This document shows, one piece after another, positions 62,101 to 64,000 of a DNA stretch of 64,000 nucleotides (positions within the stretch are counted from its first letter, which is position 1; each line of letters opens with the position of its first letter). Source of the stretch: Escherichia coli. Lineage in GTDB: Bacteria; Pseudomonadota; Gammaproteobacteria; Enterobacterales; Enterobacteriaceae. Position numbers: made by a program. The DNA lies in assembly GCF_001677475.2 (NCBI RefSeq), contig NZ_CP015229.1. One strand, given 5' to 3'.

Positions 62101-64000
62101 ACCAAAATGGCGCAGGATATCGTGGCACGTACCATGCGCATCATCGATACCAATATCAACGTAATGGATGCCCGTGGGCGAATTATCGGCAGCGGCGATC
62201 GTGAGCGTATTGGTGAATTGCACGAAGGTGCATTGCTGGTACTTTCACAGGGACGAGTCGTCGATATCGATGACGCGGTGGCTCGTCATCTGCACGGTGT
62301 GCGGCAGGGGATTAATCTGCCGTTACGGCTGGAAGGTGAAATTGTCGGCGTAATTGGCCTGACTGGTGAACCAGAGAACCTGCGTAAATATGGCGAACTG
62401 GTCTGCATGACGGCTGAAATGATGTTGGAACAGTCGCGGTTGATGCACCTGTTGGCGCAGGATAGCCGTTTGCGGGAAGAACTGGTGATGAACCTGATTC
62501 AGGCTGAGGAGAATACTCCCGCACTTACTGAATGGGCGCAACGGCTGGGGATCGATCTCAATCAACCGCGAGTGGTGGCTATTGTTGAGGTCGACAGCGG
62601 TCAGCTTGGTGTGGACAGCGCAATGGCGGAGTTACAACAACTGCAAAACGCGCTGACTACGCCCGAGCGTAATAATCTGGTGGCGATTGTCTCGCTGACC
62701 GAAATGGTGGTGTTGAAACCGGCGTTGAACTCTTTTGGGCGCTGGGATGCAGAAGATCATCGTAAGCGAGTTGAACAACTGATTACCCGCATGAAAGAGT
62801 ACGGCCAGCTGCGTTTTCGCGTTTCGCTGGGCAACTATTTTACCGGTCCTGGCAGTATTGCCCGATCCTATCGTACGGCGAAAACGACGATGGTGGTGGG
62901 TAAACAGCGGATGCCAGAAAGTCGCTGCTATTTTTATCAGGATCTGATGTTACCTGTGTTACTCGACAGTTTGCGTGGCGACTGGCAGGCCAACGAACTG
63001 GCGCGACCGCTGGCGCGGCTGAAAGCGATGGACAATAACGGCTTGCTGCGACGAACGCTGGCGGCGTGGTTTCGCCACAATGTGCAGCCGCTGGCAACGT
63101 CAAAGGCGCTGTTTATTCATCGTAATACCCTGGAGTATCGGCTTAATCGCATATCGGAACTGACCGGGCTGGATTTGGGCAATTTTGATGACAGGTTGCT
63201 GCTGTATGTCGCGTTGCAACTGGATGAAGAGCGGTAGGTCGATTACAAAATTACAGCCGGGTGAGACTTTACCCGGCCCACAGAATGGCATTATTTACGC
63301 GTCAGTTTTTCCAGATCGGCTTCAATCTCGCTGATCTTATTGGTTACGACTGACTCCAGGTGACGTAAGTCGTCGAGGATCTTACGCTTAAGATCAACTT
63401 CGCTGCGGTCACGCTGGCAGATTTGATCAAGCTCATCAATGATATACCGTAGATTCGGGCTGATTTCCTGGACTTCTTTATAACCCTGACCCACACCATC
63501 AGCGACGACCGTTTTACGCTGACGCGGATATTTAAACTTCACGCTCTTGGCGAAAAACTCGCCTTTGTCTTTCTGGAAATAGATTTTCAGAATATCGTTG
63601 TTGGCTTCCTGCCGGAGGCTGTAACGATCAATTTCTTCAGGATTGGTAATACCCAGACTTTTCAGATTGTCGTACATAGCGTTACCTCAAAATGAGTCAG
63701 TAAATTGTGCTTATTTTAGCATTTGGCCTGGCCCGCCCGGCTCGACTGTGATTGCAGAAAGCCTTTTTCTTCCAGACTTCTATCATGGCGTAAAAATCAA
63801 AAAATTACCTGCTTTATTGTGGCGATATTCCATGGGATGGATTAGCACATTTATCTTCGTTTTGCGAATTACATGACAGTCCGAAACAAGATGAAAAAGT
63901 ATTTAAAAAAGGGGGAGGAAGAATGAGTAGAACGAATTATTCTGAACCAGAAAGCAATCGGGCAGCGTCGTGCTGCCCGTGTGCATACTTTTAGTCGATG

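What the first reader, a model, noticed from the sequence alone, without database searches (positions are those of the whole stretch)
63905..63990. Short ORF with a strong Shine-Dalgarno sequence and Cys-rich tail at the window end
AAAAAAGGGGGAGGAAGA-ATG (63923) opens a 22-codon frame (MSRTNYSEPESNRAASCCPCAYF*) that overlaps an inverted repeat gggcagc-gtcgt-gctgccc. It could be a small protein, a leader peptide, or simply the regulatory region of the neighbouring gene; the window ends 12 nt later.
Basis: seen in the sequence. Interest (0 to 1): 0.25.

Follow-up and report, generated by a model that had tools for sequence, protein, structure and literature searches.

The report
dapD terminator with incidental antisense ORF
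The hairpin is the ordinary transcription terminator of the E. coli dapD gene on the opposite strand, and the 23-codon frame reading through it is a young, strain-variable ORF that a 2017 ribosome-profiling study already listed as a candidate, with no clear sign of function.

Summary
The window ends in the E. coli degP–cdaR–yaeH–dapD region. dapD is on the minus strand and its stop codon is at 63991-63993. The reported inverted repeat (63959-63979) begins 11 nt after that stop. It is the dapD intrinsic terminator: the identical hairpin in K-12 carries a Term-seq "primary" dapD 3' end (Adams 2021). Among 30 alleles its 16 stem positions never vary, while 4 of 5 loop positions do.

The Shine-Dalgarno-like tract, the ATG and the first 11 codons lie in a 128-nt segment (63828-63955). 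That segment is present in 3338 of 5426 E. coli genomes; 2084 genomes have the yaeI gene there instead. It is absent from the 75 non-Escherichia loci examined.

The ORF exists (23 codons, not 22), but GGAGG-ATG frames of this size are expected by chance. The "Cys-rich tail" is a translated terminator stem. The purine tract is the most variable part of the spacer. No deposited protein matches the ORF. Substitutions show only a weak, non-significant excess of synonymous changes.

It is not new. In O157:H7 Sakai the same frame, extended upstream by one extra G, is candidate gene XECs011 (Hücker 2017), with modest RIBOseq signal in LB only.

Verdict: ordinary terminator plus an already catalogued, probably non-functional small ORF.

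The parts
63991..64000 (-). 3' end of dapD: last codons ...ATC GAC plus stop TAA at 63991-63993. The gene is cut by the window end.
   Evidence: PGAP annotation in the near-identical genome NZ_CP151026 (dapD at L001 3192-4016, which maps to window 63991 onward). Same arrangement in Sakai. Sequence read.
63980..63990 (-). 11-nt spacer between the dapD stop and the hairpin. On the + strand it encodes the ORF's last four codons (C-A-Y-F).
   Evidence: 7 of 11 positions vary among 30 alleles. All changes are non-synonymous for the ORF except two singleton third-position changes at 63985.
63959..63979 (-). dapD intrinsic-terminator hairpin CGGGCAGC-ACGAC-GCUGCCCG.
   Evidence: Terminator scan. Folding energy -15.8 kcal/mol. 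The identical hairpin carries the Term-seq primary dapD 3' end at MG1655 185087(-). Stem variable at 0/16 positions, loop at 4/5. Conserved in E. albertii, E. whittamii and other Escherichia species.
63949..63958 (-). Interrupted U-tract AUUGCUUUCU after the hairpin. In genomes with yaeI the tract is U6-9.
   Evidence: The allele breakpoint (63955/63956) lies inside this tract.
63828..63955 (.). 128-nt allele-specific segment. K-12 and other genomes have an 842-nt segment carrying yaeI in its place.
   Evidence: blastn of window against K-12. 3338 genomes carry this segment and 2084 carry yaeI, of 5426. Single copy, found only in Escherichia. Absent from 75 loci of other genera.
63905..63922 (+). 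Purine tract A6 G5 AGGAAGA, the SD-like sequence. The GGAGG core is at 63914-63918, 4 nt before the ATG.
   Evidence: Hypervariable: A6-8, G4-7 and variable AGG/AAG units, with 8 of 18 sites variable plus all the indels. GGAGG is present in only some alleles.
63923..63994 (+). 23-codon ORF MSRTNYSEPESNRAASCCPCAYF plus TAG. It equals the C-terminal 23 residues of the published candidate XECs011.
   Evidence: Intact in 30 of 34 distinct alleles. No deposited protein matches.
63860..63890 (.). 31-nt invariant core inside the variable segment. Function unknown.
   Evidence: No variable site between 63859 and 63891 in 30 alleles. Retained in the divergent BS-04 allele.
63291..63677 (-). yaeH (DUF3461), the next gene downstream of the dapD terminator on the minus strand.

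Best explanation
The inverted repeat at 63959-63979 is the Rho-independent terminator of dapD, which is transcribed on the minus strand and stops at 63991-63993. RNA polymerase leaving dapD transcribes an 8-bp G+C-rich hairpin followed by a U-rich stretch, and releases the transcript there.

In this genome the stretch after the hairpin belongs to a 128-nt Escherichia-specific segment that takes the place of the yaeI gene. The swap cut into the U-tract: AUUGCUUUCU here, against AUUUUUUU in K-12. Termination is therefore probably leakier here, with more read-through towards yaeH. That step is inferred, not shown.

The + strand 23-codon frame is a by-product. Its start lies in a slippage-prone purine tract of the young segment. 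Its second half is the terminator read backwards: the two adjacent Cys codons come from the 3' arm GCTGCC. Its stop overlaps the dapD stop.

It may be translated weakly in some strains, as the published RIBOseq candidate XECs011 suggests, but nothing indicates that the peptide has a function.
For: - Position: dapD's stop codon lies 11 nt from the hairpin, on the same strand.
- Experiment: Term-seq in K-12 maps a 'primary' dapD 3' end at 185087(-), 4 nt after the identical hairpin, in at least two data sets (PMC7815308).
- Other genera: 22 genera inspected have a canonical terminator at the same place after dapD.
- Escherichia species with yaeI have the same hairpin followed by U6-9.
- Variation: stem 0/16 variable against 17/49 elsewhere in the ORF span, Fisher p = 0.007; loop 4/5 variable. 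Synonymous third positions inside the stem are frozen, as a structural constraint predicts and a coding constraint does not.
- Distribution: the ORF's 5' half lies in a segment absent from 38% of E. coli genomes and from all 75 non-Escherichia loci.
- The SD tract is the most variable part of the spacer.
- GGAGG-ATG frames of this size are at chance level.
- No CDS is annotated there in RefSeq and no deposited protein matches.
Against: - The U-tract in this allele is interrupted (6 U in 10), and no 3'-end mapping exists for this allele.
- RIBOseq in O157:H7 Sakai gave signal on the + strand over the in-frame 48-codon ORF: RPKM 51, ribosome coverage value 0.77, coverage 0.59, in LB.
- The ATG and the frame are intact in 30 of 34 alleles and in the sister species Escherichia sp. 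E1V33.
- Synonymous changes are somewhat more frequent in the ORF frame (7 of 18) than in the other two frames (3 and 4 of 18), with p = 0.05-0.15 against neutrality.
Confidence: 0.85

Rival explanations
1. The ORF is a genuine, E. coli-specific small protein gene (23 aa here; 40-48 aa as XECs011 in genomes with one more G). It would be translated from a + strand transcript antisense to the dapD 3' UTR.
For: - Published RIBOseq candidate XECs011 at Sakai 188466-188609 meets the authors' thresholds in LB and is classed 'real' by their machine-learning classifier.
- SD-like G-run plus ATG is retained in 30 of 34 alleles and in Escherichia sp. E1V33.
- Weak excess of synonymous changes in the ORF frame, p = 0.05-0.15.
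Against: - The signal is modest: RCV 0.77 against a mean of 1.55 for short annotated genes. It falls below threshold in BHI (0.18) and under cold/osmotic stress (0.02).
- No kA/kS was reported for it.
- The N-terminal extension is out of frame in alleles of total length 128, 127 and 124 nt, roughly 40% of sampled genomes.
- The GGAGG core is lost in most alleles, and the tail is highly variable: C20Y, A21T/M, Y22D, F23S/V.
- Absent from 38% of E. coli genomes and from all other genera.
- Not in a collection of 15 billion proteins and no Pfam hit.
- A nuclease-resistant terminator hairpin is a plausible source of spurious footprints (inference).
Confidence: 0.1
2. The ORF is a leader peptide whose translation controls the hairpin as an attenuator for a downstream + strand gene.
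For: The ORF overlaps a stable hairpin, as leader peptides of attenuators do.
Against: - There is no + strand gene downstream. The next 825 nt are dapD on the other strand.
- On the + strand the hairpin is followed by UGUGCAUACUUUU rather than an adjacent U-tract.
- There is no alternative anti-terminator pairing, and no run of regulatory codons.
Confidence: 0.01
3. The + strand signal belongs to a non-coding antisense RNA that modulates the dapD 3' end or yaeH expression, and the ORF in it is irrelevant.
For: - + strand RNA-seq RPKM of 59-95 over this interval in Sakai.
- In K-12 a bicyclomycin-sensitive + strand 3' end is mapped antisense to dapD at 185164, so antisense transcription enters dapD there.
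Against: - No promoter-like site was found in 63200-64000 by the consensus scan.
- No Rfam family matches.
- The level is that of pervasive antisense transcription, and no regulatory effect is known.
Confidence: 0.04

Closest known systems
dapD intrinsic (Rho-independent) terminator of E. coli K-12, Term-seq 3' end at MG1655 185087(-) (Adams et al. 2021, PMC7815308)
   Same: Identical 21-nt hairpin, identical 11-nt spacer from the dapD stop, same strand and same position.
   Different: In K-12 the hairpin is followed by U7 and then yaeI about 20 nt later. Here the tract is AUUGCUUUCU and yaeI is replaced by a 128-nt segment. The 3' end has not been mapped in this allele.
XECs011, candidate novel small gene of E. 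coli O157:H7 Sakai (Hücker et al. 2017, PMC5597208)
   Same: Same locus, strand and reading frame. The window's 23 residues are the C-terminal 23 of XECs011.
   Different: Sakai has G6 where the window has G5. Only in Sakai are the upstream ATT and ATG codons in frame, giving 48 or 40 aa. In the window the upstream frame ends after 17 codons (MTVRNKMKKYLKKGEEE, read from the sequence) and only the 23-codon ORF remains.
dapD terminators of other Enterobacteriaceae (AAAAAGCGGG-N3-5-CCCGCTTTTTTT)
   Same: Same position after the dapD stop, and the same job ahead of yaeH.
   Different: Unrelated sequence. Those have an upstream A-tract and a full U-tract, so they look bidirectional. The spacer to yaeH is about 110 nt there, against 313 nt here.
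Pervasively translated or de novo intergenic small ORFs seen by ribosome profiling
   Same: Short, lineage-restricted, no homologs, low footprint density, no demonstrated selection.
   Different: This one is tied to a datable event (the yaeI/128-nt swap), and half of it is fixed by a terminator on the other strand.

Membership tests
Rho-independent (intrinsic) terminator | G+C-rich stem-loop | tested here: met
   8-bp stem with 7 G-C pairs and a 5-nt loop, -15.8 kcal/mol. Context fold z = -3.5.
Rho-independent (intrinsic) terminator | U-rich tract immediately 3' of the stem | tested here: inconclusive
   AUUGCUUUCU has 6 U in 10 but is interrupted. It passes the scan's rule of at least 5 T in 8. 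yaeI-type alleles have U6-9.
Rho-independent (intrinsic) terminator | Lies just downstream of a gene's stop codon on the same strand | tested here: met
   11 nt after the dapD TAA.
Rho-independent (intrinsic) terminator | An RNA 3' end is mapped at the U-tract | not testable with these tools
   Mapped in K-12, which has an identical hairpin but a different U-tract, at 185087(-). No data exist for the 128-nt allele.
Rho-independent (intrinsic) terminator | Structure conserved, with variation confined to unpaired positions | tested here: met
   Stem 0/16 variable, loop 4/5 variable, Fisher p = 0.007 for stem against the rest. There are no compensatory changes, because the stem never varies within E. 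coli.
Protein-coding small gene | Start codon with a ribosome-binding site | tested here: met
   GGAGG lies 4 nt before the ATG in this allele. The core is not conserved: other alleles have G4-6 followed by A-rich sequence.
Protein-coding small gene | Frame conserved in related genomes | tested here: inconclusive
   Intact in 30 of 34 alleles and in Escherichia sp. E1V33. Absent from 2084 of 5426 E. coli genomes and from all 75 non-Escherichia loci. At 93-99% identity, retention of the frame says little.
Protein-coding small gene | Purifying selection on the peptide | tested here: not met
   7 synonymous against 11 non-synonymous changes, where neutrality predicts a synonymous fraction of 0.20-0.26 (p = 0.05-0.15). 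Variable sites by codon position are 5/5/7. The ORF's 5' part varies at 6/36 sites, against 12/77 for neighbouring non-ORF sequence. The tail varies at 7/11.
Protein-coding small gene | Evidence of translation | not testable with these tools
   Published RIBOseq for XECs011 in Sakai: LB RPKM 51.3, RCV 0.77, coverage 0.59; below threshold in the two other conditions.
Protein-coding small gene | Homologs among known or predicted proteins | tested here: not met
   Exact look-up of three variants found nothing. The homology search with the 40-aa form found nothing. No Pfam hit. Gene callers seldom report ORFs this short, so absence is weak evidence.
Leader peptide / transcription attenuator | A regulated gene downstream on the same strand | tested here: not met
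   Only the antisense of dapD lies downstream on the + strand.

The most novel reading that the evidence does not exclude
A micropeptide gene was born de novo in the 128-nt segment that replaced yaeI in part of E. coli. It is translated through the dapD terminator on the opposite strand. Slippage in the A/G tract switches it between a 23-aa form (G5, G4) and a 40-aa form (G6) among strains.
Probability: 0.06. Interest if true: 0.45.

Novelty: already known. Interest (0 to 1): 0.12.

Why it matters
It matters little for biology. The hairpin is a mapped, ordinary terminator, and the ORF has been in a published candidate list since 2017.

The case is useful as a caution. A strong-looking Shine-Dalgarno sequence plus ATG, with a 'Cys-rich' peptide, can arise from a purine microsatellite next to a G+C-rich terminator stem on the other strand.

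One modest point of interest remains. The yaeI/128-nt swap trimmed the dapD terminator's U-tract, so natural E. coli strains may differ in dapD-to-yaeH read-through. That could be tested directly.

Tried and rejected
- **Rfam scan** of 63200-64000 at E <= 10: only noise (mir-1822 at E = 1.8, sroE at E = 2.9).
- **Promoter scan**: no sigma-70-like site on either strand in 63200-64000, so no promoter could be assigned to a + strand transcript or to yaeH.
- **Protein look-ups**: exact look-up of three peptide variants, homology search with the 40-aa form and Pfam all found nothing.
- **Origin of the 128-nt segment**:
  - No similarity to the K-12 yaeI segment.
  - No second copy in E. coli.
  - The plasmid hits are seven non-mobilizable E. 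coli records of 0.4-4.9 Mb, most of them chromosome-sized and likely mislabelled chromosomal sequence.
  - The phage hits are 27-nt noise.
  - No viral contig matches.
  - The origin remains unknown.
- **Enterobacteriaceae small-ORF census** (PMC11188072): its supplements do not contain the peptide.
- **EHEC transcription-start-site paper** (PMC10469882): its supplements have nothing for yaeH or this spacer.
- **Follow-up on XECs011**: no paper in the library mentions it in its main text.
- **Third-codon-position enrichment** in codons 2-12: considered, but 4 of 6 sites gives p = 0.10, not significant, and it disappears over the whole ORF (5/5/7).
- **Bidirectional terminator**: rejected, because on the + strand the stem is followed by UGUGCAUAC before any U run.

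Full report
**Where we are.** The last 3.5 kb of the window are the E. coli genes degP (60501-61925, +), cdaR (62062/62080-63237, +) and yaeH (63291-63677, -). A megablast of 63300-64000 against 5426 complete E. coli genomes matches 5424 of them. In the best hits the features under the match are yaeH and dapD. In the near-identical genome NZ_CP151026, dapD occupies L001 3192-4016 on the minus strand. That places its stop codon TAA at window 63991-63993, so the window ends seven bases into the dapD coding sequence. O157:H7 Sakai has the same layout.

**The observation.** The purine tract AAAAAAGGGGGAGGAAGA (63905-63922), the ATG at 63923 and the frame MSRTNYSEPESNRAASCCPCAYF with TAG at 63992-63994 are all present. 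The frame has 23 sense codons rather than 22 and runs four bases past the stated end. The inverted repeat is cgggcagc-gtcgt-gctgcccg (63959-63979), one pair longer than reported.

A GGAGG placed 3-9 nt before an ATG that opens at least 20 codons is not unusual. There are 6 such sites in the window, against 5.0 +/- 2.7 in first-order Markov simulations. The hairpin is unusual. It is called as terminator-like on the minus strand (4 sites found against 0.8 expected). It folds at -15.8 kcal/mol on its own, and the minus-strand context has z = -3.5.

**What the hairpin is.** On the minus strand the order is dapD stop, 11 nt, the 8-bp hairpin, then AUUGCUUUCU. K-12 has the identical stop, spacer and hairpin, followed by AUUUUUUUG and then the yaeI start codon about 20 nt later. 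Term-seq in K-12 records a 'primary' dapD 3' end at 185087(-). This is the fourth base after the stem, and it appears in at least two data sets (PMC7815308).

E. albertii, E. whittamii and two further Escherichia species have the same hairpin followed by U6-9. In 22 other genera of Enterobacteriaceae, an unrelated but canonical terminator (AAAAAGCGGG...CCCGCTTTTTTT) sits at the same distance from the dapD stop, and yaeH follows after about 110 nt. The repeat is therefore the dapD intrinsic terminator.

**The ORF straddles a polymorphism.** Alignment with K-12 shows that window 63828-63955 (128 nt) has no counterpart there. K-12 has 842 nt in its place: 11 nt, yaeI, and 18 nt. Among the 5426 genomes, 3338 carry the 128-nt segment and 2084 carry yaeI.

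The segment is single-copy and is found only in Escherichia records. It is absent from all 75 non-Escherichia loci. Apart from E. coli it was seen only in Escherichia sp. E1V33.

The SD-like tract, the ATG and codons 1-11 lie inside this segment. Codons 12-23 are the shared dapD terminator and spacer. The right breakpoint (63955/63956) falls three bases after the stem, inside the U-tract. This is why the tract is interrupted in this allele.

The yaeI form is found in the more distant Escherichia species and has the intact U-tract, so I infer that it is ancestral within the genus and the 128-nt form is derived. This is an inference, not a demonstration.

**Does the frame behave like a gene?** I pooled genome alleles with about 70 metagenome contigs. 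That gave 80 copies and 34 distinct alleles.

- **Intactness.** The ATG and frame are intact in 30 of the 34. Three metagenome contigs have frameshifts or premature stops; two of them come from assemblies with 0.6x and 2.3x coverage and may be assembly errors. The BS-04 genome has ACG in place of ATG.
- **Indels.** In the intact alleles all length variation lies in the purine tract just upstream of the ATG, apart from a 6-nt duplication next to the dapD stop in strain CU532-9 that adds two codons. The tract varies as A6-8, G4-7 and variable AGG/AAG units. It is also the most substitution-rich stretch (8 of 18 sites). The GGAGG core is present in only some alleles.
- **Variable sites by region** (30 alleles):
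  - shared spacer, 4/68
  - non-ORF part of the segment, 12/77
  - ORF codons 1-12, 6/36
  - stem, 0/16
  - loop, 4/5
  - 11-nt tail, 7/11
- **Stem.** Its invariance is significant (Fisher p = 0.007). It includes four synonymous third positions that a purely coding constraint would leave free.
- **Synonymous fraction.** In the ORF frame there are 7 synonymous and 11 non-synonymous changes, against a neutral expectation of 0.20-0.26 (p = 0.05-0.15). The other two frames give 3/15 and 4/14. This is a weak trend, not evidence. At least one of the 'synonymous' calls is part of a multi-base GCA-to-ATG haplotype.
- **The Cys-rich tail.** The two adjacent Cys codons are the 3' arm of the stem (GCTGCC). 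The third Cys, and the residues after it, change freely: C20Y, A21T/M, Y22D, F23S/V.

**Databases.** RefSeq annotates no CDS in the segment. Three peptide variants are absent from a 15-billion-protein collection. A homology search with the 40-aa form finds nothing. There is no Pfam match and no Rfam family.

**Already published.** Supplementary tables of Hücker et al. 2017 (PMC5597208) list XECs011 at Sakai 188466-188609 (+). Its sequence is MYLRFANYMTVRNKMKKYLKKGGGRMSRTNYSEPESNRAASCCPCAYF, and the last 23 residues are this ORF.

Sakai has six G's where the window has five. This puts an upstream ATT (the authors take the farthest possible start, including rare codons) and two ATGs in frame. 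The first ATG gives 40 aa. In the window the upstream frame instead ends after 17 codons (sequence).

The frame relation differs among alleles. Total segment lengths of 129 and 126 nt are in frame, while 128, 127 and 124 nt are out of frame. From the evenly spaced rows, roughly 40% of genomes are out of frame.

The reported values for XECs011 are:

| Condition | RNA-seq RPKM | RIBOseq RPKM | RCV | Coverage |
|---|---|---|---|---|
| LB | 65.7 | 51.3 | 0.77 | 0.59 |
| BHI | 59.1 | 10.7 | 0.18 | 0.56 |
| Cold/osmotic stress | 95.2 | 1.6 | 0.02 | 0.30 |

The inclusion thresholds (RCV >= 0.25, coverage >= 50%) are met in LB only. The mean LB RCV of short annotated genes is 1.55. No kA/kS is given. 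The paper's conservation table finds the ORF in Escherichia only, and its classifier says 'real'. No paper in the library mentions XECs011 in its main text.

Some translation of this frame in some strains is therefore plausible. The evidence is a single candidate-list entry, and a nuclease-resistant hairpin could contribute footprints (my inference).

**Mechanism, and what is shown versus inferred.**
- Shown: the position, structure and conservation of the hairpin; the mapped 3' end in the K-12 allele; the allele structure; the lineage restriction and variability of the ORF.
- Inferred: that the hairpin still terminates dapD in this allele, probably less efficiently because of the interrupted U-tract; that read-through would reach yaeH; and that the + strand ORF is a by-product with at most low-level translation.

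The leader-peptide reading is rejected because no + strand gene follows.

**Verdict.** This is an ordinary, already mapped terminator overlapped by an already catalogued and probably non-functional small ORF. Interest is low.

Noticed in passing
window 63828-63955 (compare L002 2247-3088): Clean two-allele polymorphism in E. coli. A 128-nt segment (3338 genomes) alternates with an 842-nt segment that is almost exactly the yaeI phosphodiesterase gene (2084 genomes). The right breakpoint lies inside the dapD terminator's U-tract. The origin of the 128 nt is unknown.
   Followed up: yes
window 63905-63922: The purine tract behaves like a microsatellite: A6-8, G4-7 and variable AGG/AAG units, carrying nearly all the indels of the spacer and 8 of its 18 sites variable. 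Its length decides whether upstream ATGs are in frame with the 23-codon ORF.
   Followed up: yes
window 63860-63890: A 31-nt block (TTTTGCGAATTACATGACAGTCCGAAACAAG) is invariant in 30 alleles and is kept even in the otherwise divergent BS-04 allele, inside a segment that varies at about 16% of sites. It may be a protein-binding or promoter element upstream of yaeH. It remains unexplained.
   Followed up: partly
window 63239-63287 (compare L002 1624-1705): The cdaR-yaeH convergent spacer also differs from K-12: about 48 nt here against about 83 nt, with unrelated sequence. A minus-strand terminator-like hairpin at 63278-63255 follows the yaeH stop.
   Followed up: no
L026 1672-2382; L075 1852-2500: Escherichia sp. 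MOD1-EC7003 carries an extra 236-aa ORF with no Pfam match between yaeI and yaeH. Enterobacter sp. BIGb0383 has a 650-nt dapD-yaeH spacer instead of about 110 nt. The dapD-yaeH spacer looks like a recurrent insertion site.
   Followed up: partly
L012 (E. coli BS-04, NZ_CP172819) 400-545: A rare third allele of the spacer. It shares the invariant core but has a purine-rich, much diverged version of the ORF region with ACG instead of ATG, which makes it a natural knock-out of the ORF.
   Followed up: partly
K-12 MG1655 185164 (+), antisense to dapD: Adams et al. 2021 list a bicyclomycin-sensitive + strand 3' end inside dapD. Antisense transcription therefore crosses this terminator region in K-12 and is stopped by Rho.
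   Followed up: no
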